Shown here: piece by piece, positions 4,289 through 55,350 of the stretch
Layout: each line of letters begins with the position of its first letter
Position numbering within the stretch: the first letter of the stretch is position 1
Source of the DNA: Candidatus Bathyarchaeia archaeon
GTDB taxonomy: Bacteria > Patescibacteriota > Microgenomatia > PFEM01 > JAFGMK01
DNA: 64,000 nucleotides
Reading direction: 5' to 3'
Assembly: GCA_035529595.1 (NCBI GenBank)
Contig: DATKWK010000023.1
Location: 601-64,600 of the forward strand
Translations under genes and position numbers: made by a program
Notes under the pieces: generated by a model
Seen by the model: only the letters and a program-made list of their open reading frames with translations
Database searches by the model: none
Told to the model about the DNA's origin: nothing

Positions 4289-4834
4289 ATGATCCGCTAC
4301 TTAAACGGTGAGCTGCTGCCCGAGCTATCGCTGAGAGCTGGGAATGATCAAAAAGCAGTCAATTTTTGGATCGGACAGGCAATTTTAGCTTTTTGGAGGG
4401 TTGCCAAAGTAGGCTATTTTGACCGTCTGCTTGAGGGTCGAGGAGATGACGTAGGCGAGCACATGGTAAACGTGTCTGCGGTTATCGGTAGGGATAACGG
4501 ACAATCGTTACTAGAAGTCGACTTTCAGGATCCGTATCTTGCCGATCTATCTTGCCGGATCCCTCTTGCTGGTTTGCCGGCTAATAGTTCTCGTCTTTTG
4601 TCCCGACTGATGACTGGTGAAGAGATTAGTCTTACTGATACGGCAATCGGAAGATTGGGGGATAGCGATAGTTCGTACCAGACGCTTAAAAGATGGTTGG
4701 CCAGATCTCGTTTGGAATGGCTGATTACTCAGGATGACGGTAAATTGAGGCTAGCGGAAACAGTACCTTATTGGCGATTGAATAGTTTAGTAAGCGCGCA
4801 GGAAATTGTTCACCCCGGGGGTGCCCACAACTAG
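4289..4834 (+). CDS. hypothetical protein
   Basis: 181-aa ORF. The last codons overlap REP copy 1. Confidence 0.45.
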   Translation: MIRYLNGELLPELSLRAGNDQKAVNFWIGQAILAFWRVAKVGYFDRLLEGRGDDVGEHMVNVSAVIGRDNGQSLLEVDFQDPYLADLSCRIPLAGLPANSSRLLSRLMTGEEISLTDTAIGRLGDSDSSYQTLKRWLARSRLEWLITQDDGKLRLAETVPYWRLNSLVSAQEIVHPGGAHN

Positions 4835-4848
4835 ACACCTTGGTACAA
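4808..4848. repeat. REP-like element copy 1 (GTTCACCCCGGGGGTG hairpin plus TAGACACCTTGGTACA box)
   Basis: It has the same composite motif as copies at 17395, 54571, 55287 and 60818. It sits between convergent genes. Confidence 0.6.
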
Positions 4849-6160: not shown

Positions 6161-7345
6161 TTAATGTTGAGCGAGACAGGTTTTTCCCCAATTCAAATAG
6201 AGATAACCAAGGTCAAAACCATTAATTAAGTTGTTCTGATAATTAACGGTTGTTGTTCGGAAATCGTCCTGATCAATTTTATTGTTGTTACCAGGACAGG
6301 GAATTATTGTCGGTGTGGCGGTTGGTGGAATGAGCGTCGGAGTAGCGGTGGAACAAATATTTCCTGCCAAGTCAAATTGGTATTGGGTGTTAACAAAACC
6401 GATGATCGATTCCGCCAGTGCTCGAGCATAAAGGTTGACTTTTTCGCTGCTGCTGATAAATGAATACTGGGTTTCGATTTGGAGGCCGTTAATCGTCCCG
6501 CCGCCTCTGGAACCGAAATGAGCGGTATTATAACCACCAGTGAAATAAGGATTGCCTTCCGGATCCGGATTTAGGGGACTGGGAAGAGACGAGTAACCCT
6601 GATTTTGAAGGTAGCCGCTGAGACTGGTTTCGCCTCGGATGACTTCAGGGAAGTATAAATCATTCCGGTAAATCAGGTTTTTAATGCTTGATTTATCAAT
6701 ATAAGTAGCGGAGTTAAGCTGTTCGTCAGAGTGGGAGAGGTCGCTACTACCTAAAAGATAACCCAGTTCAATCCATTTCATTTCGTGGCCGCTGGTATGA
6801 AAATCAAAATATTGACCTTGAACGCATTGCTGGTGGACCATACTTTTGGCATAATCAATGAATTCGTGGTACTCGTACCAGGCTTGTTCCGCCCATTGGT
6901 GGTCGCAAGCGGCCATATCCAGATAGCGGTTGGCATCCAATTTTTTCCGGGCCAGATGATTGATAATAATATGCGGGTATTTGCCGGTCAGCTGTTTAAT
7001 GTCTTCCCAAACACCACGGGCATATTCTTGACTGTTGGTATCGCGACCAACAACAAAACTATCTGAGCCGGTGCAGCCAGCCTTTGTCCGATCAGGGATT
7101 TCTGAAGGGTATAAATAGCCACCGTGGGGCGCAGAAATAATTATTGGCAGATTACCTTTAATATATTCAATGTACTGGTTTCTACCGTAGCATGATTTTC
7201 CCAATTCACACTGACCGGGATTAGTGTAGTCAGCCAGAGCTTGGCCGGCTAGTAGTCCGGAAAAATTGAACAAAAATAATTCCGCCAGAAAAATGATCGG
7301 AATTAGAATTTTTTTTAAGTGTAAAAAGTTGTTAATCTTAGTCAT
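6161..7345 (-). CDS. secreted hydrolase with IISAPHGG and FDFHTSGHE motifs, possibly of the N-formylglutamate amidohydrolase superfamily. The C-terminus is a half dockerin-like segment.
   Basis: Signal peptide and metal-hydrolase-like His motifs. The C-terminus has a PT stretch followed by DLGYLYLNW. Confidence 0.4.
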   Translation of the reverse strand: MTKINNFLHLKKILIPIIFLAELFLFNFSGLLAGQALADYTNPGQCELGKSCYGRNQYIEYIKGNLPIIISAPHGGYLYPSEIPDRTKAGCTGSDSFVVGRDTNSQEYARGVWEDIKQLTGKYPHIIINHLARKKLDANRYLDMAACDHQWAEQAWYEYHEFIDYAKSMVHQQCVQGQYFDFHTSGHEMKWIELGYLLGSSDLSHSDEQLNSATYIDKSSIKNLIYRNDLYFPEVIRGETSLSGYLQNQGYSSLPSPLNPDPEGNPYFTGGYNTAHFGSRGGGTINGLQIETQYSFISSSEKVNLYARALAESIIGFVNTQYQFDLAGNICSTATPTLIPPTATPTIIPCPGNNNKIDQDDFRTTTVNYQNNLINGFDLGYLYLNWGKTCLAQH

Positions 7346-16700: not shown

Positions 16701-16958
16701 ATGAACGGCGAGACAGTGATTATTCGTGATCGGTACCAAATAACCATTCCTTATTCTTTGAGAAAAATGTTAACTTGGTTGGTTCCTAAAAAGGTAGTTC
16801 GGGTTAAGATTATCAATAAAGAAAAAGTCCTAATTGAACCCTATAGAGAGATTAAAGTGGATTGGCAGGAAATTTTCAGGCAGTTGACTATAATCAGAGA
16901 TTGGGGAGCAAAAACCTCTTTAAGTCAATTTATTGCCAAAGATAGGGAGTTCCACTGA
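16701..16958 (+). CDS. vapB: AbrB/SpoVT-type (VapB-like) antitoxin
   Basis: Swapped-hairpin N-terminus (ETVIIRDRYQITIPYSLRKML). Its stop overlaps the PIN gene start (ATGA). Confidence 0.55.
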   Translation: MNGETVIIRDRYQITIPYSLRKMLTWLVPKKVVRVKIINKEKVLIEPYREIKVDWQEIFRQLTIIRDWGAKTSLSQFIAKDREFH

Positions 16959-17371
16959 TGATAAAAATAGTTTTAGATACTTCTGTTATTGTGAAATGGT
17001 TTAGTCAGGAAAAAGAAGCAGACAAGGCGGAAGAATTACTTTGCGACTTGAGAGAAGAGAAAGTTCAGATTCTTTTGCCTGAATTGGTTAAATACGAATT
17101 GGCTAATGCCTTATTGAAGGGAAAGAAACTTAATTCATCTCAGGCTCAAAAAGCTTTAGCGATTTTTTACCGTTTGCCAGTCCTTTATATATCCGAATCA
17201 GAATCTTTGGCCTTTTCTTCTTACAAGATGGCTCAGGATTTAAATATAACTTACTACGATGCTTGCTTTCTCGCCTTAGCCAGAGCCGAAAAAGCAGTTT
17301 TAGTGACTGCTAATCCGAAACATCAGGCAGGAGTCAAAGGGATTAAGATTACCAAACTTCAGGATTATTGA
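16958..17371 (+). CDS. vapC: PIN-domain toxin (VapC-like)
   Basis: IVLDTSVIVKWF N-terminus and conserved acidic positions; the size (137 aa) is typical. Confidence 0.7.
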   Translation: MIKIVLDTSVIVKWFSQEKEADKAEELLCDLREEKVQILLPELVKYELANALLKGKKLNSSQAQKALAIFYRLPVLYISESESLAFSSYKMAQDLNITYYDACFLALARAEKAVLVTANPKHQAGVKGIKITKLQDY

Positions 17372-17613: not shown

Positions 17614-17949
17614 ATGGATAAAACGGTTTTACAAATACCAGTCTCAAAAGATCTTCGGCTTAAAGCTCAGCAAGCTGCTTTTGATCTTGGTTTTTCCTCT
17701 CTTCAAGAAAGTATTCGGCTTTTTTTAAAGAAACTAGCTGACGAAACAGTAACAGTTAGTTTTCATGAAAGAGGAACGATTCAATTGTCGCCAAAAGCTG
17801 CCGTCCGTTATCGTAAAATACTTCAGGATATTAAAGAAAACAAGCATCTTTATTATGCTAAAAACATCAATGATCTTTTTAGTCAATTAGATGGAGATAC
17901 TTTACCACGCCCGGTTTCTAAAAAAATATCGAAAGAGAATTCTTCCTGA
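17614..17949 (+). CDS. RelB/DinJ-like antitoxin
   Basis: 111 aa, lying upstream of and overlapping a RelE/YafQ-like ORF. The N-terminal region is RHH-like. Confidence 0.4.
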   Translation: MDKTVLQIPVSKDLRLKAQQAAFDLGFSSLQESIRLFLKKLADETVTVSFHERGTIQLSPKAAVRYRKILQDIKENKHLYYAKNINDLFSQLDGDTLPRPVSKKISKENSS

Positions 17950-18094
17950 TAAGCGCCTCAAAAGACAGGCTAAACTCAAGTTTGATTTGTTTTCAAAAGA
18001 TCCATTTCATGAATCGTTATCTAGCCATTGCCTAAGAGGCAAAAAGATTGGTTTAAGAGCTTTTTCTGTTACTGGAGATTATCGGGTAATCTAG
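17891..18094 (+). pseudogene. RelE/YafQ-family mRNA interferase toxin, C-terminally truncated
   Basis: HESLSSHCLRGKKIGLRAFSVTGDYRVI matches the RelE/YafQ core (H.L.G....R...V..DYRII). The ORF stops immediately before MITE copy A. Confidence 0.45.
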
Positions 18095-18099
18095 AATTC

Positions 18100-18219
18100 A
18101 TTTCAAAACCTACTTTCTGTGTCATCCTGAGGGGTCGAAATTTCGGCCCCGAAGGATCTAGCGAAGCGCTTACGCTAGATTCCTCGCTCTTGCTCGGAAT
18201 GACAATGGGGTTTTGAAAT
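18100..18219. mobile_element. MITE-like palindromic element, copy A (GTCATCC...GGAATGAC, flanked by ATTTCAAAACC / GGTTTTGAAAT)
   Basis: Terminal inverted repeats with two internal hairpins. It is related to the copies at 24935 and 39801. Confidence 0.55.
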
Positions 18220-18398
18220 AGCTTCTATAAGATGCTTGATAAATCAAAAGTAATTTTTCTTGATATCGGTACTCATAATCAGGTTTATTGATTGGTTTTT
18301 TCAAAAATCTTTCCCGAATCGGCGAAGATACTTCCTCTCCAACTCAGGAAAGATCATGAAGTTTTTTCAGCTTGGGGTAGGAAAAGTCTATAAATCCA

Positions 18399-18447
18399 AA
18401 AAAAAAGCCGGACACGTCTTCCTGTGGGGGGAAGGGTGTCCGGCATC
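18399..18447 (-). terminator. Rho-independent terminator (GCCGGACACCC...GGGTGTCCGGC plus a T9 run on the minus strand)
   Basis: GC-rich stem with a T-run. It is nearly identical to the terminator at 21889..21937. Confidence 0.7.
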
Positions 18448-18469
18448 GGACTGCGGTTTCAAGAAAAGG

Positions 18470-20728
18470 CTACGGCCGTGGTTGTGGGAGGGGTCCAGTG
18501 CGTGCGACGGTGGGTAGATACAGCCACGCCGTAGGCGTGAAGGGAGGTGTGTTGCGCACGACCAGGTCGGCTGTGACCTCCTTGACTATCTGGCCGTTGT
18601 CCCCCTGGAGATGGAAAGTGACCGTTCCCTCTGGGGCTTCTGAGGCGATGCGGACGCCCTCAAGCGGCATAAGGAGACCACAGGTATTGTTGACGTGGGT
18701 CCACCTCGTGGGTCCCTGAACGAAATCCAGAAGATTTGCCGGTTCGGTCTCGGTCCACAGAGAGACTGTTATAGGCGGAGACGGGCAAAACCGCTCCGAG
18801 CCTGCATTTCTCTGGATCCAGTCACCGCCGGGAACGGTAGAACTGGCGTAGAGGTAGAGCTCCAATCGGAACTGGAACTGGTCGGGGTAGAACTGTAGCC
18901 ACTCCATGTCCGTATCCTGGGAACAGGTGTTGTACACATCGGCGTGCCATGCGTACCTGTTCCACTCCGTAGTGATGGGGTACTCGAATGAGTATACTGT
19001 CCAACCGGGTTGTCCTTCGATACAGAAAGCCATTTCGCAGGCGCCCGGCTTGCAGCGCGAAGAACTGTTACAGATCCGAACGGACTGGAGCAGGTCGGGT
19101 GGCCAATTTCCGTTGACTTTCAGGATTGGCCGCTCTCCGAACGGGACCTTCCAGATGCCTCCTTCGAGAAACGCGCGGGAGAGGAAGTCGAGCCTATTCT
19201 CGAGCTGGAGGCCGCTGATGCAGGCCTCGTCGAAGAAGACCCATTCGTAGTCGGCATCCGACCAGGTCTCTCCAGAATCGGTAACCCCCGACACTGACAC
19301 GCGATTGACTTGGTGGCTGTGAGCTGTCCCATTGAGTTGTACCTGGAACTGACACTCGTAGGTATTGCCTGCCTCGACAATTTGGGGAACGGAACAGGTG
19401 CTATCGTCGATCTTGGTAACGTCCCCAAATGCCGAGTCTACGATGGACTGTAGGTGTAGATTCTGGTCTCCGGTTGCCCCTACTACGATCGTAAAGGAGA
19501 CCAAGCCGCCGGGCTGGGCCAGATGGTCTGGGTTGGCAGTCTTGTAGACCTGGACCAGCTCCGGGAGGTCACGGACATCCATTGTAACAACGGCCGTGTC
19601 TTCACCATATCCATTGGTGATGGTATAGGTGAAGGTGTCTATGCCGACCCAGTGTGGTGCCGTTTCTCCTCCGGGAGGAGAGTAGACGAGGTGACCCTCG
19701 TCGTGAATATAGACCTCACCATGTTCTGGTTGCCCGGCCGAGACGAGAGTGAGATTGCTTCCGAACCCCGGGAGGTCGTTTTCCCAAGGCCAGAGCAACA
19801 TTGTCCCGTTGTTTCTGACGATATACAGGTCGTCGATCGCAATGGGCCGGATCAGGTCGGCTGCAACTGTAGGTGGCGTATCGTAGTAGCGGTTGCCGTA
19901 GATATCACGCAGGTCGTTGCATTCCTGGTTAGTGTCAACGTACCAAAGGTCAGCACCCGCAGCCGTCATGGTGGCGACTAGCGAACTGACTGACCTAGTC
20001 GAGCAGCCGTCTCCCAATGCTCCGATCGAACACCTGTATCCTGGATTTGACACGCAGATTCCCCAGGCATGGAGGAGCCACTGGTCGAGATAGGTCCATC
20101 CGCTTGTTGATGCGCCTTGGGCATTGGTGATGGCTATACTGGCGCTCAGTGGTGTTGTAACGGTGACGATCTCTCTGAACGTTGGGTCACCGTTGTAGAA
20201 CCAGGCACCTGCCCGGTCCTCTGTGTGCAGATGAGCTGCGGTCTCCGAGCCGAGCCGGAGCAGACGGTTAAGATTCTCCCGCTCGACAGAACCTGACCCA
20301 TCGAACCCGAACAGGACCAACGTCGGGGTCGATTGCTGCATAGCCGCGAGAACTGTCAGCGCTGGCCGCGAGGGGACCTCGATCACGAACTCGTAGACCT
20401 CGTAGGGCAGCCCCGCTAGCGTCTGTTCGACACGCGTCTCGCAGTTGCCGGCAACCTCCGGATTGAGCGCCTTTACTGCGGCACAGATTTGTTCAACCTT
20501 CTGTGCCAGGCTTGTGCCGGAGGCTAAGTTGATCGTACGTGTGACCGTTTCCCCGGGGGTGGGGACGGTCACTTCGGTCTCGAACCCAAGGGTGGGCTCG
20601 GGATCCTGGCTACGGGGGGCAGCCAGGGCGGATAACGGGTGGATCCCAAGGATCCACACCAGGCCTAACGTAAGAGCGAGGCCTAGGGAAATGACGATTA
20701 CCAGGCGCAGAAGCGCCTTGGTGTTCAT
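18470..20728 (-). CDS. secreted vWA-domain giant protein (MIDAS motif FGFDGSGS) with a large beta-rich C-terminal region
   Basis: I assign the start at ATG 20728, which lies 8 nt after a perfect AGGAGG; the track ORF extends to 20884. There is a signal/TM segment at the N-terminus. The gene is GC-rich, about 55-58% in hand-counted samples. Confidence 0.6.
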   Translation of the reverse strand: MNTKALLRLVIVISLGLALTLGLVWILGIHPLSALAAPRSQDPEPTLGFETEVTVPTPGETVTRTINLASGTSLAQKVEQICAAVKALNPEVAGNCETRVEQTLAGLPYEVYEFVIEVPSRPALTVLAAMQQSTPTLVLFGFDGSGSVERENLNRLLRLGSETAAHLHTEDRAGAWFYNGDPTFREIVTVTTPLSASIAITNAQGASTSGWTYLDQWLLHAWGICVSNPGYRCSIGALGDGCSTRSVSSLVATMTAAGADLWYVDTNQECNDLRDIYGNRYYDTPPTVAADLIRPIAIDDLYIVRNNGTMLLWPWENDLPGFGSNLTLVSAGQPEHGEVYIHDEGHLVYSPPGGETAPHWVGIDTFTYTITNGYGEDTAVVTMDVRDLPELVQVYKTANPDHLAQPGGLVSFTIVVGATGDQNLHLQSIVDSAFGDVTKIDDSTCSVPQIVEAGNTYECQFQVQLNGTAHSHQVNRVSVSGVTDSGETWSDADYEWVFFDEACISGLQLENRLDFLSRAFLEGGIWKVPFGERPILKVNGNWPPDLLQSVRICNSSSRCKPGACEMAFCIEGQPGWTVYSFEYPITTEWNRYAWHADVYNTCSQDTDMEWLQFYPDQFQFRLELYLYASSTVPGGDWIQRNAGSERFCPSPPITVSLWTETEPANLLDFVQGPTRWTHVNNTCGLLMPLEGVRIASEAPEGTVTFHLQGDNGQIVKEVTADLVVRNTPPFTPTAWLYLPTVARTGPLPQPRP

Positions 20729-20730
20729 AT

Positions 20731-21175
20731 GTTCCTCCTTAGTATCTGGTTCCGGTAGCCTCCGATGTTTTGGAGTCCCACCTACCGGAAAAAAGTTGAT
20801 CTTGTGAAACCAGCAGTCCGATGAAAAGCAAAATCGTATTTTGCCATCCCACGCTCCAAGGAGTCCACGCCTTCGGCGGGACACCTTGCAGGAGGGATTA
20901 GCGCTTTTTGCTCTTTACCGGACTGCCGGTTGGGATCAGACTTTTTTCATTTCACCTCGGAGGAGCAAGATCGTTGTCTTGCACCATCCGAGGAGAAAAT
21001 CACTCGGAGGAATTCGCCTCACAACCCTTATGTCCTAATCCCTAAACCCTATATTTTGTAGCCTTTCAAGAAACCAGCTGTTTTGCTGTTTTTTCGACTG
21101 GCTCTTCGCATTACGAAGAACAGTCAAGCAAAACAACAAAGGTAACTTGAAATTGTTATTTCAAGTTGTCAAGGT
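20731..21175 (-). promoter_or_regulatory. promoter/operator plus ~450-nt conserved 5' leader of the vWA gene (copy A)
   Basis: Blocks 20731..20820 and 20913..21175 are near-identical to 24808..24898 and 25108..25330. The promoter region has TTGACA next to the 22-bp perfect palindrome ACTTGAAATAACAATTTCAAGT. Confidence 0.5.
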
Positions 21176-21373
21176 GCAATAGCAGCAATATTTACTGCTT
21201 TTTTGCGAGCCAAGTATTTTAGGCCGGCCGCTTTATGGCCGGTTTTGAATGGTCTTGACCGCAAAGAGGTAGGGGAGAGAGATTTTTCAATTAATTGTTT
21301 TTATCTCTATTTCTTTCCCATCTCTTTAGGGTCAAGGTTTGTTGATTGACTTTTAATTTTTAAAAGATCTGAA

Positions 21374-21658
21374 ATGATTTCAGTGTTAACCAAAACCGAT
21401 TTAAACCAGATTGAAAAATTGATTGACCGGAAACTAGAGGAGAAGTTGAAGAAATTTCTTACTAAAAAAGAATTTGAGGAAAAGATGAATCAGCTCCTCA
21501 CTAAGGATGAGTTTTACGATGCCTTCGATAAGTTGATGAAGGAGCTTCGTAACCACTGTGACGAGAGAGCGGCGGTGATGTTTCGCTTCACCGATCATGA
21601 AGATAGGATCACCACCCTCGGGAAGATCCACGCTTCCGATCTGCCTTCTTCCGGTTGA
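21374..21658 (+). CDS. small K/E-rich hypothetical protein
   Basis: 94-aa low-GC ORF between the two GC-rich cassettes. Confidence 0.35.
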   Translation: MISVLTKTDLNQIEKLIDRKLEEKLKKFLTKKEFEEKMNQLLTKDEFYDAFDKLMKELRNHCDERAAVMFRFTDHEDRITTLGKIHASDLPSSG

Positions 21659-21888
21659 CTAGGTTTTTAAAGTGCGAGCAAAATAACCCCTAGCTTTTTA
21701 CTAAAAAACTCTTTTTTACCAAAAACGGCCTCTTTTGGAGACCAATTTCTTGATCTCTAAAAGCAAGCCGATTATAGCATAAAATTAATGAATAAGCAAT
21801 ATTATAGGATAAGGCAGGTTTTTTCGAAGGTAAGGAATATTGTAAACTGGTTTTACTTTACTGATTGGCTTGAAAAAAGCCGTTAAAT

Positions 21889-21937
21889 CCAAAAAAAAAG
21901 CCGGACATGTCTCCTGTGGGGGGAGGGGTGTCCGGCT
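21889..21937 (-). terminator. Rho-independent terminator, a duplicate of 18399..18447
   Basis: Same hairpin and T-run; it follows the 21963 stop. Confidence 0.7.
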
Positions 21938-21962
21938 CGGACTGCGGTTTCAGGAAAGGCTA

Positions 21963-24802
21963 CTAGCGTGTCACTTGGACGGTGGCGGTCGCGGTATAGA
22001 CCCGACCGCTACTGTTGGACGTCACCGTCCAGATCGCTGTAAACGGCCCGACGTGGTCCGGCGAGCCGGTCCAGGCGTCCCAGTAATTGGTCGAACCGTA
22101 CCAGGCTCCCATCGGGAGCTGACCGGCCGGCCAGCACTGCCAGCCGTCGGACAAGGGGGGAGTCACACAGAGTTGCATGGCCACGACCAGGTCGTGACCG
22201 GAGATGTTGGAAACTCCCCACTGCCAACGGGCCTTAGAGCCTGGTGGAGTGACTACGTTTGGGTTGGGGCTGTTGGTACCCTTGACCCAAACCCTGAGTT
22301 CGGCCGGGGGCGGGCCGGGCGGAGGCCCGAAGATAATGGGTAGCCAGATTCGCGCAACACAGCCTGTGCAAGGTTGGACTGGTAGTCGCGATGGCCATTC
22401 GTAGGCGCCGAGGTCGATGCCACTGCCGTACGGCCTGCTTGCTCCGTAAGCGTCGTGATCGACGATTATGGGTGCCTTTGGATGGTCGCGGCAACGACTG
22501 TCCTTGCCGAGGCTGTAGTCGCCGTTGGCGGGATCGACGAAGAACGGATCTCCGTCGTATAGATCGCCCGAGTCCCAGGTCATTGGCCAGATGGGTCCCT
22601 CCCAACCAACACCTGGCCCAGGTTCAGGCCGCCAGCTGATGTAGTATAGTTCAGTGTAGCTGTGCCCGTCAGCTCGTGCTGCCAGTGTGTTGTTGTCGAG
22701 AATGGTGTTGTACACTTTGACGGTGGGCGCTCCACTGGAGTATTCGATCGCTTTGAAGCCGATCGGGTTATCCACCAAGGTGAGGTGAGCAACCGTTAGT
22801 ACCGATCCGCTATGAACCAGGCGCAGTTGTAGTCCGGCGTCGTTTGCCTTAGCAACGACATCGTTCACGATCTCGAGGTTGCCTGGGATCACAGCATAGA
22901 TGCTGGAGCCCCAGCTCGAATCTGCAAAGTCGCCGATCGAGACGATACCGTCGAGGCTTCCGTTCTGCCGGATACTTCCAACACAGGCTCCGAAGCTATC
23001 GGCATAGTTGTCCTGGCAGCGGATGCGGAAGACGCGGATGTTGCCTGGTCCAACCATGAGGCCTCCGCCTGAGGCGCCGCTTGACCGGTTGTTCTCGAAA
23101 GCACAGTCTTGGACTATGCCTTCGGTGATGTCTAGCCCGCCGCCGGTGAAGCTGGCGATGTTGCCAACGAAGTGGACGTTACGGATCTCGGCTCGGATGC
23201 CGCTAGCGACGTAGATTCCACCACCGGATTCCAAGTTGCCCATTGCCGAGGCATCACCGTTCATGATAGTGAGACCATCGATGGTGATGTCGGGTGTTTG
23301 CATAGCGGCCGCGTAGGCGAGGGAGTCGAACGGCGTGCCGTCGGCGTTGAGCACTTCGTGGGAAATGACTCCCCAGTGCTCGCCATCGCCAGCGAGAGTG
23401 CCGACTTCGGTCTCGGTAGCTGCACCGCAGGAGAGGCTGCTTCAGGAGCAACGTAGATCACTCGGCCGCGGCCTTGGGCATCAAGTGTTGTAGTGTAGGT
23501 GCCCGGTTTCCGGACCGAGAAGTCAGCCGAGTAGCCGCCCAGCAGACTCAAGTGCTGATCTACGAAGACCACTTGCGAGATGGTTTGCGTAGTAGCTTGG
23601 AGCTGCACTGCAGCTAGAAGGGTCTCGACCTCGTGTTGGCGCTTGGTATCGACCAACAGCCGCCAGTCGTCGCCAAGGGCAGCGAGTATGGACGCGTCGG
23701 TTGCGGCTGACTCAGTTCGCGACTGGACGTCGGTGTAGACGCCGCCGGCGATTCGGATCTCAGCGTCCGACTCGGCTCGGTTAACTGCCTGCTGTACTGT
23801 CCGACACGGATTCGTTGCGTCACTGCAGTCGTTGCTATCGTCGCTACCAGCAGTGCTCACGTAGCAGATTTGACAGGTTGGCAGTGGGATTGTCTCAACC
23901 GTCGTAGTCACCACGACCTCATCCCACGATCCCTTTGACCCATCGGTGCGGACTGTAGCTGTGATTGTGCCGATGAAGCTAGGGTTCACCGTGACGACCA
24001 CCGTGGTTTGCCACGTCATGGTCGGCGGCAGATCCGTAACCGTCCATGTGTGGCTGCCACTCGGGCTGACTTGCGACGGCAAGGTCAGAGTGAGGTGGAA
24101 GGTGTCGGTGATCCCGCCGACGTTGGCCAGTTGAACTGTGTAGGTCAGACTTCCGCCGGACGTGACCGGATCGGGTTGGGCCAGGAGGTCAACGTCGACA
24201 TTCGGTTGGTGATTCCGAAGGTCGTCGATAACCTTACCCTCGTCGGGTGGTGGTTGATAGTAATACTCATCCACGCACCCGAGGAGGTCGGTTCCCCCCT
24301 CCTGGTCTTGGATGTAGGCCGCCATAGTATAGCCCTGTGCCCGAAGCTCGTTCAATCGGACGCAGGCTTGGGCCGCGTCGGTACACCAGCCATCGCCGAC
24401 GAAGATGAATCCTCGAGTGCCAGCCCAGGGCAGCCCATCGAACATGGCAACACCGGCCTCAATTGCCGGCAGGCAGTAGGTGTCACCAGTGGGCGTGACT
24501 GTACCGGCTACGCGCAGGAACGCGTCTGAAGCGGTCTGGGGATCGGTCAGCAGCGTGACCGTGTAAAAACGATCCCCGTAGTAACCGCCCCCGGCGACTT
24601 CGGCCTCGTCGGCGTTCAATTCCAAGGCCAACCGGCTGGCGAACCCCAGCCCCTCTTGAGTGTCAGTGAAGGTCCGGCTCCCGGAGGAGTCAACCGCCAC
24701 AAACACACCCATCTTGGGTGAGGCGGCCAGCACGGCCATAACGCCCAGAGCCATCAGGAGCCCCAGGGTGAGAGCGAGAACTAAACGCATCTTTACATTC
24801 AT
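21963..24802 (-). pseudogene. second secreted vWA-domain (FVAVDSSGS) plus parallel beta-helix giant protein, split by a frameshift near 23440 into ORFs 23261..24802 and 21963..23354
   Basis: The upstream ORF ends in a low-complexity out-of-frame tail. The downstream frame is open from a TGA at ~23447 and reads like a beta-helix (GGGIYVASG...NVHFVGN). Same RBS and leader as copy A. Confidence 0.5.
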
Positions 24803-24807
24803 TCTGT

Positions 24808-25330
24808 GTTCCTCCTAAGTATCTGGTTCCGATAGCCTCCGATGTTTTGGAGTCCCACCTACCGGAAAAAAAGTTGATCTTGTGAAACCAGCAGCCCGGG
24901 AAAAAACAGAAGCAAAATTAAATTATGTGATTAAGTCATTCCGAGGGTCGACTATTCGACCCGAGGAATCTAGCGAAGCGTGAATTATTATTCTTATTAT
25001 CGATTTTTACGCTAATGCTGGATTCTTCTCCCACAAAATGCGGGATCAGAATGACCGGTTCTTGTTGCTAATCACTAAAAACTGATCACTGATGGACTGC
25101 TTCTATTCTTTACCGGACTGCCGGTTGGGATCAGACTTTTTTCATTTCACCTCGGAGGAATTCGCCTCACAAACCCTAGACTCTAGTGTCTAATCCCTAA
25201 ACCCTATATTTTGTAGCCTTTCAAGAAACCAGCTGTTTTGCTGTTTTTTCGACTGGCTCTTCGCCTAACGAAGAACAGTCAAGCAAAACAACAAAGGTAA
25301 CTTGAAATTGTTATTTCAAGTTGTCAAAGA
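24808..25330 (-). promoter_or_regulatory. promoter/operator plus leader of the vWA gene, copy B (interrupted by MITE copy B)
   Basis: Sequence identity to copy A. It lacks a 46-nt internal duplication present in copy A. Confidence 0.5.
24935..25055. mobile_element. MITE-like palindromic element, copy B (GTCATTCCGAGGGTCGA...CAGAATGAC)
   Basis: Terminal inverted repeats. It shares the internal TCTAGCGAAGCG motif with copy A and is inserted in the leader. Confidence 0.5.
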
Positions 25331-30757: not shown

Positions 30758-31031
30758 TAACATAGGGAGACGAGGCCGGTAGGCTGATTTGAGCTGCGCT
30801 CTGCGCACAACAACTCAGACTCTACCGGCCCTCTCTTTTGGGCCTAAACGATTTAGATCCAAAAGAGAGGGATGACAGGAGGTTCAGTTTCAAGACAATA
30901 TTTTGCTTGCAGTTGCGGGATTTTATATAGTATACTCAGATTGTCTGCCTTAGGGGTGGAATTGAAAAGACGATTTGGGGGTATGATTTGCAGCATTTTG
31001 ATTAATTTTATGTAAATTATGTTGAGATAAA

Positions 31032-38601: not shown

Positions 38602-39759
38602 ATGGACAACGAGTTAAATTTGGGTTTAACCGAAAATTTATCTGAAGCCGGGCTGGCAAAAAAAATCGCCAAAGCGGCGGACGTCACGGCTTCCAATCGG
38701 GAACAATGGCGGAGAATAGGCGGAGACGAGATTCTTGACGAAGAAAGAAAACGCCGATTTGTTAGTTTACAGGCAGCGGCCGGTCAGGATAAACAGGCAG
38801 CGGAAAAACTGACTGCCCTTGACCGTTTAGGTAAATTCCAATCCGGATTAGGACGATTATCCGGGCGATTGACAGGGATGAGAAGCAGCCTGGTTTCTCA
38901 AGAGGCAGGTTATCCCTTAGAGCAGAAGATAGGTTATATCGAGCGATCGGCAAGAATTATTCATCAACGATTACTGCAAATCGGGGAAGTGGCGGCCAAA
39001 GTCCCGAGCTTTGCCTCTCTGGCTCACTCAGTAATTAGTTTATTAAGTTATGCTCAGAATTTATCAATGTACTCTGATCGGTTAGTAAATCAGCCTGAGA
39101 AGGTTGCCATTCTGGAAACAGCGCCAACTAGGATAACCGCCGCCGGTTTATGGATTACCCGGCTTCGCGATGAAATGCTCGGCGTCGGTATCGACCGCCT
39201 GTACTCATCATGGGAAGTTGCCAAGACTATTAAAGCTGGGCATTCGGCTATTCATTTTATCGAAGATGAATCCGTTTTCCCCTGGCTGATCGGTGACCCT
39301 CAACTTTTGCCTCTATTGGCTGGGGAATTGGAAAATAACAGCTTGAAAGCCCGGCCAAGAGATTTGAGAACTGAAATCCGGCTGGATTTTGACCCCGATG
39401 CCGAAAGCTTGATTTTCGTTTATCAGGATAATGCCGGCGGTTTGGTTGGTGATAATTTGAGGGCAGTGGCCGGACAAGGACAAAAGTTGGGATTGATTTC
39501 AGCCGAGGAATTGCAGCAAGTCGAAAGCGATGATCCGCTTAATCCCGAATTGGAAGCCAAAGTAATTAATCTGATTTTTACTCCGGGCATCAGCGGTTTT
39601 AGCCAAACCGGCCGGACCGGTACCGGTTTTGGTCTGGCTGATTTCAGACAAAGAATTCATGAGCAGGGAGGAGAAATCCGGGCAACTAATCTCCGGCAAG
39701 GTGAGAAAGTTATCGGCCTTCGTTTTGATGCTTGTTTTCCAGCTCGTTACCGAAAATAA
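38602..39759 (+). CDS. histidine-kinase-like ATPase (HATPase_c) protein without an obvious HisKA or TM region
   Basis: N box ELENNSLKA, G1 DNAGG, G2 GTGFGLA. Confidence 0.45.
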   Translation: MDNELNLGLTENLSEAGLAKKIAKAADVTASNREQWRRIGGDEILDEERKRRFVSLQAAAGQDKQAAEKLTALDRLGKFQSGLGRLSGRLTGMRSSLVSQEAGYPLEQKIGYIERSARIIHQRLLQIGEVAAKVPSFASLAHSVISLLSYAQNLSMYSDRLVNQPEKVAILETAPTRITAAGLWITRLRDEMLGVGIDRLYSSWEVAKTIKAGHSAIHFIEDESVFPWLIGDPQLLPLLAGELENNSLKARPRDLRTEIRLDFDPDAESLIFVYQDNAGGLVGDNLRAVAGQGQKLGLISAEELQQVESDDPLNPELEAKVINLIFTPGISGFSQTGRTGTGFGLADFRQRIHEQGGEIRATNLRQGEKVIGLRFDACFPARYRK

Positions 39760-39800: not shown

Positions 39801-39856
39801 GTCATTCTGAACTTGATTCAGGATCTATATAGATTCCGTGTCAAGCACGGAATGAC
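39801..39856. mobile_element. MITE-like palindromic element, copy C (GTCATTCTGAAC...CACGGAATGAC)
   Basis: Same termini as copies A and B, with a central GGATCTATATAGATTCC palindrome. Confidence 0.45.
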
Positions 39857-54570: not shown

Positions 54571-54616
54571 TGACACCCCGGGGGTGCACTGCTATTGACA
54601 CCTTGGTACAGAGGTG
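54571..54616. repeat. REP-like element copy 3 (GACACCCCGGGGGTGCAC hairpin plus TATTGACACCTTGGTACA)
   Basis: It lies immediately upstream of the Y1 transposase start. Confidence 0.6.
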
Positions 54617-54632
54617 TTATTTTATCCTCAGA

Positions 54633-55286
54633 ATGGCCCGACGAAAAGTCATCCTTGCCGAAGGACAAATCTATCATATCTTTAACCGGGGCGTAGAAAA
54701 AAGAGAAACATTTCTTGATAAAAGAGATTACCTTCGTTTTTTTAAAACCTCTGAGTATTACCAAATGGCTAATCCTGAAGTTCGTTTTTCCTTTCGTAAG
54801 CGCCCAAAAGTCGGAAAACAAACGATTCCTAAAAAAACACAGAAATCAGTCGATATTTATGCCTATTGTCTGATGCCTAATCATTTCCATTTTTTATTAA
54901 AACAAAATATTCAAAACGGGATATCAACTTTTATAAGTAGGCTTACCAATAGCTACACTAGATATTTCAATATTCGATATAAAAGGATTGGGCACCTTTT
55001 TCAGGGCAGTTTTAAGGCGGTCAGAATTATCGGTAATGAGCAATTACTACATGTAGCCCGTTATATCCACCTTAATCCTTTGATTGATTATTTAGTTAAA
55101 GATTTAAAAGAATTCAATTTTTCTTCCTATCCCGAATATGTCGGTCTGAAAAAGGGAATTAGTTCGCCTGACGAGATTTTGGGACAGTTTCAGTCAATTT
55201 CCGACTACGAAAAATTCGTTTTAGACCAGGAAGATTATGCCAGGGAACTGAAAAGTATCCAGCGTTTACTTCTTGAAGACCATTAA
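54633..55286 (+). CDS. IS200-like Y1 (HUH) transposase, REP-associated (RAYT-like)
   Basis: HUH motif MPNHFHFLL. The catalytic Tyr region is SYTRYFNIRY and the N-terminus is IYHIFNRG. It is flanked on both sides by REP hairpins. The start is at MARRKV; the track ORF begins at 54603. Confidence 0.75.
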   Translation: MARRKVILAEGQIYHIFNRGVEKRETFLDKRDYLRFFKTSEYYQMANPEVRFSFRKRPKVGKQTIPKKTQKSVDIYAYCLMPNHFHFLLKQNIQNGISTFISRLTNSYTRYFNIRYKRIGHLFQGSFKAVRIIGNEQLLHVARYIHLNPLIDYLVKDLKEFNFSSYPEYVGLKKGISSPDEILGQFQSISDYEKFVLDQEDYARELKSIQRLLLEDH

Positions 55287-55343
55287 CCAAGGTGTCTACT
55301 TATGTACACCCCGGGGGTGAACGCATATAGACACCTTGGTAGA
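55287..55343. repeat. REP-like element copy 4 (CCAAGGTGTCTA, then a TACACCCCGGGGGTGAAC hairpin, then TAGACACCTTGGTAGA)
   Basis: It lies between the transposase stop and the rplL stop. Confidence 0.6.
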
Positions 55344-55350
55344 GGAAGGT

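What the first reader, a model, noticed from the sequence alone, without database searches (positions are those of the whole stretch)
18100..18219. Family of GTCATTC...GAATGAC palindromic MITE-like elements; copy A truncates a RelE/YafQ toxin
Three copies lie at 18100..18219, 24935..25055 and 39801..39856. They share terminal inverted repeats GTCATTC(C/T)GA...TC(G/A)GAATGAC and internal palindromes of the form GGATCTA...TAGATTCC, but differ in length (~56-120 nt). Copy A begins ~10 nt after the premature stop of a RelE/YafQ-like ORF that lacks its usual C-terminal ~20 residues. This is consistent with an insertion that inactivated the toxin of a RelBE pair. All three copies sit at the edges of GC-rich patches.
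Basis: seen in the sequence. Interest (0 to 1): 0.55.

Follow-up and report, generated by a model that had tools for sequence, protein, structure and literature searches.

The report
Nuclease-target hairpin repeats; one splits toxin gene
The three palindromic elements are real, but they are inverted pairs of an already described hairpin repeat (the CGTC-tagged REP / "Ssn-related motif" that small GIY-YIG single-strand DNA nucleases recognise), and one pair sits inside a 132-bp miniature transposon that jumped into a toxin gene and split it in two.

Summary
GTCATYCYGA occurs 6 times in the window against 0.36 expected, as the outer ends of three elements: 18121-18203, 24935-25055 and 39801-39856.

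The interpretation needs correcting. GTCATTC...GAATGAC is not a transposon terminal inverted repeat. Covariation over about 146 related elements shows that each element is two independent local hairpins in inverted orientation. Each unit reads GTC + ATYCY stem + GA/GA + inner hairpin + RGRAT + C-TAG. This is the known NTS/SRM motif (Neisseria dRS3, "CGTC-tagged REPs"), the single-stranded-DNA target of Ssn GIY-YIG nucleases. In related loci, 361-403-bp versions carry a 90-98-aa GIY-YIG gene between the two hairpins. The window copies have no such ORF.

Copy A alone is a true MITE. It spans 18094-18225 and has 17-bp terminal repeats (GAATTCATTTCAAAACC / GGTTTTGAAATAGCTTC) and a TA target duplication. 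A profile of 47 metagenomic copies matches it end to end (E=2.7e-19).

Copy A splits the YafQ/RelE toxin gene rather than truncating it. The last 21-22 codons lie just downstream, and the rejoined protein is full length.

The mobilising enzyme was not identified. An IS5-family transposase is a lead. No Ssn gene lies in the window. This is a new member of a known kind, of moderate interest.

The parts
18094..18225 (+). Copy A: complete 132-bp miniature transposon (TIR - spacer - hairpin dimer - spacer - TIR) inserted in the toxin gene.
   Evidence: An nhmmer profile built from 47 metagenomic copies aligns 18092-18227 end to end, E=2.7e-19. The family consensus was derived.
18092..18093 (.). Left copy of the TA target-site duplication. 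Together with G18094 it creates the premature TAG stop of the toxin ORF.
   Evidence: TA flanks 43/55 left ends and 41/55 right ends of family members.
18226..18227 (.). Right copy of the TA target-site duplication.
18094..18110 (+). Left terminal inverted repeat, GAATTCATTTCAAAACC.
18209..18225 (-). Right terminal inverted repeat, GGTTTTGAAATAGCTTC on the + strand (GAAGCTATTTCAAAACC on the - strand).
18121..18158 (+). Copy A, left SRM/CGTC-REP hairpin unit: GTC-ATCCT-GA-[GGGGTCGA AATT TCGGCCCC]-GA-AGGAT-C, followed by the tail TAG.
   Evidence: Strict unit search. Single-stranded DNA fold -9.9 kcal/mol with GTC and the tail unpaired.
18178..18203 (-). Copy A, right SRM unit on the opposite strand: GTC-ATTCC-GA-GC AAGA GC-GA-GGAAT-C, tail TAG.
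18156..18180 (.). Central palindrome ATCTAGCG-AAGCGCTTA-CGCTAGAT between the two units of A. In full-length relatives the GIY-YIG gene sits between CTAGCG... and ...CGCTAG.
17891..18091 (+). 5' part (67 codons) of the disrupted YafQ/RelE-family toxin gene.
   Evidence: the rejoined protein hits YafQ_toxin over 2-88; aligns full length with 13 intact homologues.
18228..18291 (+). 3' part of the toxin gene (..KMLDKSKVIFLDIGTHNQVY + stop), displaced into another frame by the insertion. The Y codon is rebuilt from the TA plus T18228.
17614..17949 (+). Upstream partner ORF (111 aa), the presumed antitoxin of the pair. It has no Pfam hit.
24935..25055 (+). Copy B: hairpin dimer without MITE arms. 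Left unit 24935-24970 (+), right unit 25021-25055 (-), with a 50-nt AT-rich centre beginning CTAGCGAAGCG.
   Evidence: No hit to the MITE profile.
39801..39856 (+). Copy C: minimal hairpin dimer. Left unit 39801-39825 (+, one T.G pair), right unit 39832-39856 (-). It lies 41 nt downstream of the histidine-kinase-like ORF 38602-39759.
   Evidence: Only the core matches the MITE profile (E=0.03).
30856..30876 (-). Possible degenerate solitary unit, GTC-ATCC-CTCTCTTTT-GGAT-C-TAA, overlapping a 13-bp inverted repeat at the edge of a GC-rich patch. Low confidence.
   Evidence: The relaxed search that found it has a high background (13.5 hits expected).

Best explanation
**What the elements are.** Each of the three elements is an inverted pair ('dimer') of a known hairpin repeat. 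The same repeat has been called the CGTC-tagged REP, the dRS3/NTS repeat of Neisseria, and the 'Ssn-related motif' (SRM).

**Anatomy of a unit.**
- An unpaired GTC tag.
- A 5-bp stem, ATYCY/RGRAT.
- A tandem GA/GA mismatch.
- A variable inner stem-loop.
- An unpaired C followed by TAG/CAG/TAT.

Because the two units face outwards, each DNA strand carries one unit in the recognisable orientation.

**How the units work (from the literature, not shown here).** Such units act as DNA, not RNA. When the DNA is single-stranded, they fold. A roughly 94-aa single-domain GIY-YIG nuclease (Ssn) binds them and cuts a few nucleotides 5' of the GTC. The GTC is needed for cutting and the C after the stem for binding.

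**Full-length relatives (shown here).** Relatives of 361-403 bp carry a 90-98-aa GIY-YIG gene exactly between the two units. The window copies are the ORF-less form.

**Copy A (shown here).** In copy A the dimer is the cargo of a 132-bp miniature transposon. It has 17-bp terminal inverted repeats and a TA duplication, and it is a member of a family abundant in metagenomes. It inserted at ATC|TA|TAAG inside a yafQ/relE-type toxin gene, created a TAG stop, and pushed the last 21-22 codons out of frame.

**Inferred.** The insertion disarmed the toxin. The transposon is moved in trans by a DDE transposase that duplicates TA at C-TA-R sites; an IS5-family enzyme is the best lead.

**Copies B and C.** These are dimers without transposon arms. 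They sit in intergenic DNA, like ordinary REP/NIME-type repeats.
For: **Family reality**
- GTCATYCYGA occurs 6 times against 0.36 expected.
- 70 viral-contig loci, at least 119 genome loci and at least 119 metagenome loci were found.

**Structure**
- Over 293 element readings (about 146 elements on both strands), segments 1-2 and 3-4 are 98% Watson-Crick paired.
- Segments 1-4 and 2-3 are about 75% paired, with clear compensatory sets such as ATCCT/AGGAT + ATTCT/AGAAT.
- Single-stranded DNA folds of all six window units leave the GTC and the tail unpaired.

**Identity with the known motif**
- Neisseria NTS is CGTCATTCCCGCGMAVGCGGGAATCYRG.
- The roles of the GTC and of the C, and the absence of activity on dsDNA or RNA, come from PMC11893778.
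- CGTC-tagged REPs form mostly inverted dimers and include dRS3 (PMC3733652).

**Link to GIY-YIG**
- ORFs in L072, L137, L150 and L169 lie between ...GRATCTAGCG and CGCTAGATYC....
- They hit Pfam GIY-YIG at E = 1e-16 to 1e-19.

**Copy A as an insertion**
- The rejoined toxin hits YafQ_toxin over its whole length.
- It aligns end to end with 13 intact homologues. The TA-duplication model gives the commonest length.
- The MITE profile matches 18092-18227 with E=2.7e-19.
- Across the family, TA is present at 43/55 left ends and 41/55 right ends. Position -9 is C in 37/55 and position +9 is R in 49/55.

**Transposase lead**
- IS5-family elements (DUF772 + DDE_Tnp_1) lie directly beside MITE copies in L248 and L273.
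- They carry TA duplications and the TIR ACAGGCTGTTGAAAAAC, which is 10/17 identical to the MITE TIR.
Against: - No GIY-YIG ORF lies in the 64-kb window. Whether the source genome has an ssn gene is unknown, so the hairpins may be orphans here.
- The published degenerate SRM search string gives 0 hits in the window. The window hairpins are longer and have an interrupted stem.
- Assignment of the GIY-YIG ORFs to the Ssn clade (cd10448) could not be tested. Pfam gives only the generic GIY-YIG domain, and NCBIfam and PDB gave nothing specific.
- No autonomous element with the MITE's own TIRs was found in about 585 kb of MITE-bearing contigs.
- The IS5 similarity (10/17) is modest.
- ssn-containing units lack the MITE arms, so Ssn is probably not what moves the MITE.
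- Only one MITE copy lies in the window, so recent activity in this genome is not shown.
Confidence: 0.8

Rival explanations
1. The GIY-YIG nuclease itself is the transposase. On this view SRM-ssn-SRM is a minimal autonomous transposon and the ORF-less dimers, copy A included, are its non-autonomous derivatives. They would be excised or inserted through Ssn cuts on single-stranded DNA.
For: - Compact 361-403-bp units consist only of hairpin - GIY-YIG ORF - hairpin.
- ORF-less copies look like precise internal deletions that keep CTAGCGAAGCG...CGCTAG.
- Dozens of near-identical copies occur in one Anaerolineae MAG.
- The authors of PMC11893778 raise an IS-like origin.
Against: - Copy A's insertion boundaries lie 27 nt and 22 nt outside the hairpins. 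Ssn is reported to cut a few nucleotides 5' of the GTC, not at those boundaries.
- The boundaries coincide with 17-bp conserved TIRs and a TA duplication. These are hallmarks of DDE transposition.
- ssn-carrying units lack those TIRs.
- No ssn gene occurs in 585 kb of MITE-bearing contigs.
Confidence: 0.12
2. The elements are REP/REPIN-type repeats mobilised by the RAYT-like Y1 (IS200-like) transposase encoded in the same window at 54603-55286.
For: - The window encodes a Y1_Tnp protein (E=4.7e-12), with a weak hit to E. coli RayT.
- The architecture of inverted hairpin dimers with a conserved unpaired 5' tag parallels GTAG REPs and REPINs (PMC3733652).
Against: - That gene is flanked by a different palindrome, CACCCCGGGGGTG ... 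GACACCTTGG, which has its own extra copies in the window.
- The tag here is GTC, not GTAG.
- No Y1 homologue was found in the 190 loci carrying the hairpins.
- Y1 genes seen near MITEs elsewhere have their own hairpins, or they interrupt the MITE.
- Y1 transposition does not produce TA duplications or TIRs.
Confidence: 0.03
3. The elements are structured RNAs acting after transcription: a cloverleaf or four-way-junction ncRNA, a terminator, or an mRNA-stabilising hairpin.
For: - Whole elements fold well as RNA (z = -4.3 to -7.2), and about 4-5 kcal/mol better on the + strand.
- C lies 41 nt after a gene end.
- REPs in general are often transcribed (PMC3733652 abstract).
Against: - The four-way-junction pairing (1-4, 2-3) is the one that covariation rejects.
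- The conserved features are two-fold symmetric: the same unit appears on both strands, as expected for DNA recognition.
- No Rfam family matches, even at E<=10.
- SsnA does not bind the RNA form.
- Copy A lies inside a disrupted gene and B lies between divergent genes.
- No T-tract follows the stems.
Confidence: 0.05

Closest known systems
NTS / Ssn-related motifs (SRM) and the Ssn GIY-YIG single-strand DNases (Chenal et al., Nat Commun 2025, PMC11893778)
   Same: - The unit has the same conserved letters as the Neisseria NTS: GTCATTCC ... GGAATC-YRG.
- The tag is unpaired and there is a C after the stem.
- The motif is oriented and hairpin-forming.
- Units flank small (90-98 aa) single-domain GIY-YIG genes on both sides in related loci.
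- Copies cluster around particular genes. Here A and B bracket a GC-rich block encoding large Ig-like surface proteins.
   Different: - The window hairpins are longer, with a GA/GA internal loop and a second stem. They escape the published search string.
- The host looks like a small-genome Patescibacteria-type bacterium, and copies also occur on phage-like contigs.
- No ssn gene lies in the window.
- One dimer rides inside a TA-duplicating MITE and sits inside a gene. In N. meningitidis only 2% of NTS are intragenic.
CGTC-tagged REPs (Di Nocera et al., BMC Genomics 2013, PMC3733652), which include Neisseria dRS3 and Rickettsia RPE-4/-6
   Same: - An unpaired (C/T)GTC tag.
- A stem starting with AT.
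- A short unpaired tail.
- A predominantly inverted-dimer organisation with variable spacers.
- Heterodimers: the two units of a pair differ.
- Halothiobacillus dimers are embedded in a palindrome, aaGCTT-GAAAaACC ... GGTaTTTCgAAGC, that resembles the arms of copy A.
   Different: - The described families have uninterrupted 8-9-bp stems and 4-5-nt loops. Only C-right fits that.
- The base before GTC is C or T in only 3 of the 6 window units.
- That paper did not recognise TIRs or a TA duplication, and it concluded that no dedicated transposase exists.
Classical bacterial TIR-MITEs with a TA duplication (for example Correia/CREE elements of Neisseria, or IS630- and IS5-derived MITEs)
   Same: Copy A is 132 bp and non-coding. 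It has 17-bp imperfect TIRs, a TA duplication, a C-TA-R target preference, many copies in metagenomes, and it disrupts a gene.
   Different: - The TIR sequence is unrelated to Correia.
- The whole interior is a nuclease-target hairpin dimer rather than a remnant of a transposase gene.
- No parent IS with the same ends was found.
REPINs / BIMEs mobilised by RAYT tyrosine transposases
   Same: Inverted doublets of short tagged palindromes, amplified within genomes. The associated gene is flanked by the repeats.
   Different: - The tag is GTC, not GTAG.
- The associated protein is a GIY-YIG nuclease, not a Y1 HUH transposase.
- The window's own Y1 gene uses other palindromes.

Membership tests
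SRM / NTS (Ssn-related motif) | An unpaired GTC immediately 5' of the palindrome (needed for cleavage). | tested here: met
   All 6 units of A, B and C have it. It is unpaired in the ssDNA folds.
SRM / NTS (Ssn-related motif) | A palindrome of the dRS3 type, ATTCC...GGAAT, followed directly by C and a YRG tail. | tested here: met
   - Stems are ATYCY/RGRAT: 5 perfect and 1 with a T.G pair.
- The C is present in 6/6.
- Tails are TAG x3, CAG x1 and TAT x2.
SRM / NTS (Ssn-related motif) | A match to the published degenerate search string HGTCWYN(0-2)YYVSBRHN(0-5)WNVSBRGN(0-2)RNCYNB. | tested here: not met
   0 hits on either strand of the window. The string allows only short, continuous GC-rich stems.
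SRM / NTS (Ssn-related motif) | Association with a small single-domain GIY-YIG (Ssn, cd10448) gene flanked by the motif. | tested here: inconclusive
   - Met in the related loci L072, L137, L150 and L169.
- No GIY-YIG ORF lies in the window.
- The rest of the source genome could not be searched.
- cd10448 membership is not testable without CDD.
SRM / NTS (Ssn-related motif) | Bound and cut by Ssn as single-stranded DNA only. | not testable with these tools
   This is a biochemical property (PMC11893778).
CGTC-tagged REP superfamily | A CGTC/TGTC tag, an 8-9-bp stem starting with AT, a 4-5-nt loop and a 3-nt tail. | tested here: inconclusive
   - The GTC tag and the AT start are present in 6/6.
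- The preceding base is C or T in 3/6.
- Only C-right has an 8-bp stem with a 5-nt loop. The others have interrupted, longer stems.
CGTC-tagged REP superfamily | Organisation mostly as inverted dimers with a spacer, often as heterodimers. | tested here: met
   All three window elements are inverted heterodimers.
TIR-MITE with target-site duplication | Terminal inverted repeats at the very ends, plus a direct duplication of the target. | tested here: met
   - Copy A: 17-bp TIRs (14/17 complementary) and TA on both sides.
- Family: TA at 43/55 left ends and 41/55 right ends.
- Not met for B and C, which give no or only core profile hits.
TIR-MITE with target-site duplication | An empty site: homologous sequence without the element. 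| tested here: met
   13 intact toxin homologues align across the junction. Removing 134 bp restores a full-length YafQ-family protein. No near-identical empty allele was available.
TIR-MITE with target-site duplication | An autonomous partner IS with matching TIRs. | tested here: not met
   None was found in 585 kb of MITE-bearing contigs or in viral contigs. The only candidate is an IS5-family element with 10/17 TIR identity and a TA duplication.
REP/REPIN-RAYT system | A GTAG tag, and a RAYT gene flanked by the same repeats. | tested here: not met
   The tag is GTC. The window's Y1_Tnp gene is flanked by CACCCCGGGGGTG palindromes instead.
Integron attC sites | RYYYAAC ... GTTRRRY core sites at the ends of an imperfect palindrome, arranged in arrays of cassettes. 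| tested here: not met
   The ends read GTCATYC/GAATGAC. The copies lie 6.7 and 14.7 kb apart.
Any Rfam RNA family (including hammerhead and tRNA-like) | A covariance-model match. | tested here: not met
   There were no hits apart from two tRNAs at gathering threshold. Only noise appeared at E<=10 around copy A.

The most novel reading that the evidence does not exclude
The 130-bp TA-duplicating MITE may be a vehicle that spreads Ssn recognition hairpins between distant lineages, including Patescibacteria, Chloroflexi, Firmicutes, Proteobacteria and phages. A DDE-type transposon derivative would then have been co-opted to seed nuclease target sites. In the stronger form, the GIY-YIG nuclease itself drives transposition, which would make SRM-ssn-SRM a new class of minimal transposon. 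Copy A would be the first documented case of such a unit landing inside a gene with a clean target duplication.
Probability: 0.15. Interest if true: 0.75.

Novelty: new member of a known kind. Interest (0 to 1): 0.4.

Why it matters
The hairpin unit is the target of a recently discovered family of sequence-specific single-strand DNA nucleases. The biological role of these nucleases outside Neisseria is unknown, and how their repeats spread has only been guessed at.

This window gives a clean natural example of a hairpin dimer that moved:
- It has defined ends.
- It has a TA duplication.
- It left a disrupted but reconstructable toxin gene.

The related loci show the same dimer in three states: alone, around a GIY-YIG gene, and as cargo of a widespread MITE. 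That points to concrete experiments on how these repeats multiply.

It also extends the system to small-genome uncultured bacteria and to phage-like contigs.

For the genome itself the consequence is ordinary: one toxin-antitoxin module has lost its toxin.

Tried and rejected
1. **Cloverleaf / four-way-junction RNA.** RNAfold's MFE for A and B suggested this. Covariation supports the two local hairpins instead.
2. **Hammerhead-like core (CUGA...GAA) or tRNA-like cloverleaf.** By eye the conserved residues do not fit, and Rfam gave nothing.
3. **Integron attC sites.** I considered these because of the TA modules and the GC mosaic. The core sites are absent.
4. **RAYT/Y1 mobilisation.** Rejected. 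The window's Y1 gene has other flanking palindromes. Y1 genes near MITEs elsewhere are independent insertions.
5. **Literature search by sequence strings.** Found nothing. The family was recognised only after the GIY-YIG neighbour was seen.
6. **The published SRM regular expression.** 0 hits in the window.
7. **Search for an autonomous element.**
   - Long TIR pairs in metagenome loci were nested insertions or chance matches.
   - The TIR-only scan of viral contigs returned only chance matches; none had a hairpin unit next to it.
8. **Relaxed search for extra solitary units in the window.** It is dominated by background, with 13.5 hits expected. Only 30856-30876 is a weak candidate.
9. **Assigning the GIY-YIG ORFs to a named subfamily through NCBIfam or PDB.** Uninformative.
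10. **Alternative contexts of the GC-rich block in Logan contigs.** This gave only assembly breaks. One break lies inside copy A.

Full report
**1. What is in the sequence**

| Copy | Coordinates | Length | Ends |
|---|---|---|---|
| A (core) | 18121-18203 | 83 nt | GTCATCCTGA...TCGGAATGAC |
| B | 24935-25055 | 121 nt | GTCATTCCGA...TCAGAATGAC |
| C | 39801-39856 | 56 nt | GTCATTCTGA...CACGGAATGAC |

- GTCATYCYGA occurs six times on the two strands against 0.36 expected. Five of these are element ends; C's right end reads GTCATTCCGT, and the sixth hit (4729-4738) is a solitary match inside an ORF.
- The gapped two-ended pattern occurs twice against 0.00 expected.
- No Rfam family matches, either at gathering threshold or at E<=10 around copy A.

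**2. The toxin gene is split, not just shortened**

- ORF 17891-18094 (67 aa) ends in GDYRVI*. The missing end, FYKMLDKSKVIFLDIGTHNQVY*, is encoded at 18223-18291 in another frame.
- The rejoined 88-89-aa protein hits Pfam YafQ_toxin over its whole length, and ParE_toxin more weakly.
- It aligns end to end with 13 intact homologues of 85-89 aa, mostly from Patescibacteria-type MAGs. FSVTGDYRVI and DIGTHNQVY are nearly invariant in that alignment.
- Removing 134 bp, meaning one TA is treated as duplicated, gives RVI-YKML..., the commonest length among the homologues.
- The premature TAG stop is made of the duplicated TA plus the first G of the insert.

**3. The 'terminal repeats' are the heads of two separate hairpins**

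- Whole-element RNA folds suggested a four-way junction.
- I collected about 146 related elements from public contigs and compared the four ATNCN/NGNAT segments.
  - Segments 1-2 and 3-4 are 98% Watson-Crick paired.
  - Segments 1-4 and 2-3 are only about 75% paired.
  - Compensatory sets are obvious, for example ATCCT/AGGAT with ATTCT/AGAAT, and ATGCT/AGCAT with ATTCC/GGAAT.
- The selected structure is therefore two local hairpins in inverted orientation.
  - On one strand a unit reads GTC-[ATYCY-GA-(stem-loop)-GA-RGRAT]-C-TAG.
  - Its partner is the same kind of unit on the other strand.
- All six window units fold this way as single-stranded DNA, with the GTC and the tail unpaired.
- A strict definition (GTC + complementary 5-bp stem + C) finds five of the six units and nothing else. 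C-left has one T.G pair.

**4. The family is very widespread, and full-length copies carry a GIY-YIG gene**

- The two-ended pattern found 70 loci in viral contigs. Many are obvious relatives, and some form tandem arrays (L030 has 5 copies, L048 has 4).
The hosts are listed below:
  - Microgenomates, Roizman-, Gottesman- and Shapirobacteria.
  - Saccharibacteria and other Patescibacteria.
  - Anaerolineae, with dozens of near-identical copies in one MAG.
  - Clostridia/Bacillota, Gammaproteobacteria and Bacteroidota.
- Clustering the ORFs of these loci revealed a recurrent 90-98-aa protein with Pfam GIY-YIG at E = 1e-16 to 1e-19.
- In L072, L137, L150 and L169 its gene lies exactly between the left unit (...GRATCTAGCG) and the right unit (CGCTAGATYC...). 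The resulting compact units are 361-403 bp.
- The window copies keep the junction sequences (CTAGCGAAGCG ... CGCTAG in A and B) but have no ORF. No GIY-YIG ORF exists anywhere in the window.

**5. The family is already described**

- The GIY-YIG link led to Chenal et al. 2025 (PMC11893778).
  - The Neisseria repeat NTS is CGTCATTCCCGCGMAVGCGGGAATCYRG. It contains the long-known dRS3.
  - SsnA, a 94-aa single-domain GIY-YIG protein, binds and cuts it.
  - SsnA acts only on single-stranded DNA and only in one orientation. It cuts a few nucleotides upstream.
  - The three bases before the palindrome govern cutting. The C after it governs binding.
  - ssn homologues across phyla are flanked by such 'Ssn-related motifs' (SRM): 71% on at least one side and 42% on both.
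- The window units share GTCATTCC...GGAATC-TAG with NTS.
- Earlier, Di Nocera et al. 2013 (PMC3733652) defined 'CGTC-tagged REPs'.
  - These include dRS3 and Rickettsia RPE-4/-6.
  - They occur mostly as inverted dimers, often heterodimers, and 'apparently lack a dedicated transposase'.
  - Halothiobacillus dimers are embedded in a palindrome, aaGCTT-GAAAaACC...GGTaTTTCgAAGC, that resembles the arms of copy A.
- Two membership caveats remain.
  - The published degenerate SRM string finds nothing in the window, because these hairpins are longer and interrupted.
  - I could not test whether the GIY-YIG ORFs belong to CDD family cd10448.

**6. Copy A is in addition a true MITE**

- The DNA inserted in the toxin gene extends 27 nt to the left and 22 nt to the right of the hairpin dimer. 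It ends in inverted repeats.
- 55 distinct complete copies give this consensus: TA|[G/C]AAGCY-ATTTCAAAACC-N9-10-[dimer]-N~20-GGTTTTGAAAT-RGCTT[C/G]|TA. The modal length is 130-132 bp.
- Flanking bases across the family:

| Position | Base | Count |
|---|---|---|
| Left flank | TA | 43/55 |
| Right flank | TA | 41/55 |
| Both flanks | TA | 32/55 |
| -9 | C | 37/55 |
| +9 | A or G | 49/55 |

- This is the pattern of a TA duplication at C-TA-R sites.
- An nhmmer profile of 47 of these copies aligns to window 18092-18227 from its first to its last position, E=2.7e-19.
- The element is therefore 18094-18225, with TA at 18092-93 and 18226-27. This is the same junction that restores the toxin reading frame.
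- One metagenomic copy (L236) is nearly identical to copy A at both ends and in the centre.
- Copy C matches only through its core (E=0.03) and copy B not at all. Both are plain dimers.

**7. What moves it**

- No longer element with the same ends, and no ssn gene, was found in 585 kb of MITE-bearing contigs.
- A TIR-only scan of viral contigs returned only chance matches.
- ssn-carrying units lack the MITE arms.
- The insertion boundaries are not where Ssn is reported to cut.
- A TIR-binding DDE transposase is therefore the more likely mobiliser.
- In L248 and L273, IS5-family elements lie directly next to MITE copies. They carry DUF772 + DDE_Tnp_1, TA duplications and the ends ACAGGCTGTTGAAAAAC, which are 10/17 identical to the MITE TIR. 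This is a lead, not proof.
- The window's own Y1 (IS200/RAYT-like) gene at 54603-55286 is flanked by a different palindrome and is not linked to this family.

**8. Context**

- A and B bracket the main GC-rich block of the window, 18.4-24.8 kb at 57-60% GC against 45.5% overall. The block encodes large Ig-like/DUF7507 proteins.
- This recalls the NTS-gene-NTS arrangement around surface-protein genes in Neisseria. I did not show that the block was acquired through the repeats.
- The GC contrast at C is weak.

**9. Verdict**

- The repeat unit belongs to a known family with a known protein partner.
- The new elements are the host range, the demonstration of a clean insertion with a target duplication inside a gene, and the recognition that a widespread 130-bp MITE carries the nuclease-target dimer as its only content.

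Noticed in passing
window 54573-55345 (gene 54603-55286, +); also 4811-4843, 60856 and 17395: A 227-aa IS200/RAYT-like Y1 transposase gene (Pfam Y1_Tnp, E=4.7e-12) is flanked by direct copies of a second, unrelated repeat: (G/T)ACACCCCGGGGGTG-N10-12-GACACCTTGGTA. Further copies or halves of that repeat lie at 4811/4834, 60856 and 17395. The last of these is between the vapC-like gene and the antitoxin.
   Followed up: partly
window 18400-24810: A GC-rich block (57-60% GC against 45.5% overall, interrupted by a 40% GC stretch at 20.9-21.95 kb) carries three large minus-strand ORFs. The 804-aa one has Big_9, DUF7507 and cadherin-like domains; the other two have no Pfam hit. The block is bracketed by copies A and B and looks horizontally acquired.
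   Followed up: partly
window 18470-20884 (-): The identical protein is recorded in NCBI as 'Ig-like domain-containing protein [Candidatus Bathyarchaeia archaeon]' on an 846,852-nt contig. Yet the window encodes bacterial L7/L12 with its dimerisation domain, L10, L1, MreB, OmpR-type and histidine-kinase-like proteins. The archaeal label therefore looks wrong, and the contig looks like a small-genome (Patescibacteria-like) bacterium.
   Followed up: partly
window 16701-17371: A second toxin-antitoxin pair lies immediately upstream of the disrupted pair: an AbrB/PrlF-like 85-aa ORF followed by a PIN-domain VapC, with overlapping stop and start. Both genes appear intact.
   Followed up: no
L001 10270-10565 (Logan SRR8554643 contig, same genome): An independent assembly of the same organism breaks exactly in the central palindrome of copy A (...CTAGCGAAGCGCTTACGCTAG). 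This shows the insertion is present in that sample too. It also shows that the element causes assembly breaks.
   Followed up: yes
L030 8546-8969; L048 9003-9429; L120, L167 and L119 (Microgenomates MAG WFRL01): Hairpin dimers occur as tandem arrays (4-5 copies with 11-14-nt or about 30-nt spacers) on phage-like contigs and in Microgenomates MAGs. This resembles the Neisseria intergenic mosaic elements. A set of related phage contigs sharing capsid-type genes carries them.
   Followed up: partly
L199 1844-2077; L275 11954-12218; L297 (minus strand 255 onward): Some MITE copies have been hit by secondary insertions. In L199 and L275 these are GC-rich palindromes (GGGGCGGGCCTCCGTGCCCGCCCC). In L297 it is a Y1 transposase unit with its own GTTCCCAAGCTCCAGCTTGGGAAC hairpins.
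   Followed up: partly
L150 (minus strand, ORF at 6784) and L170 (minus strand, ORF at 2605): A second subfamily of small GIY-YIG ORFs (WYVYIIECIDGLYYTG...) is flanked not by GTC-tagged hairpins but by a different repeat containing CCTCGAACAATAA. This suggests other nuclease/repeat pairings.
   Followed up: no
window 30796-30880: A 13-bp inverted repeat, CCCTCTCTTTTGG ... CCAAAAGAGAGGG, is followed by ATGAC at the right edge of a GC-rich ORF (30.0-30.75 kb). It may be a decayed single hairpin unit.
   Followed up: partly
L074-L190, Anaerolineae MAG JALWZT01: At least 45 copies share an identical 43-nt left unit and a variant right end, CTCAGCATGAC (stem ATGCT/AGCAT). They have conserved upstream flanks of at least three types. 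This indicates a recent large amplification in one genome.
   Followed up: partly
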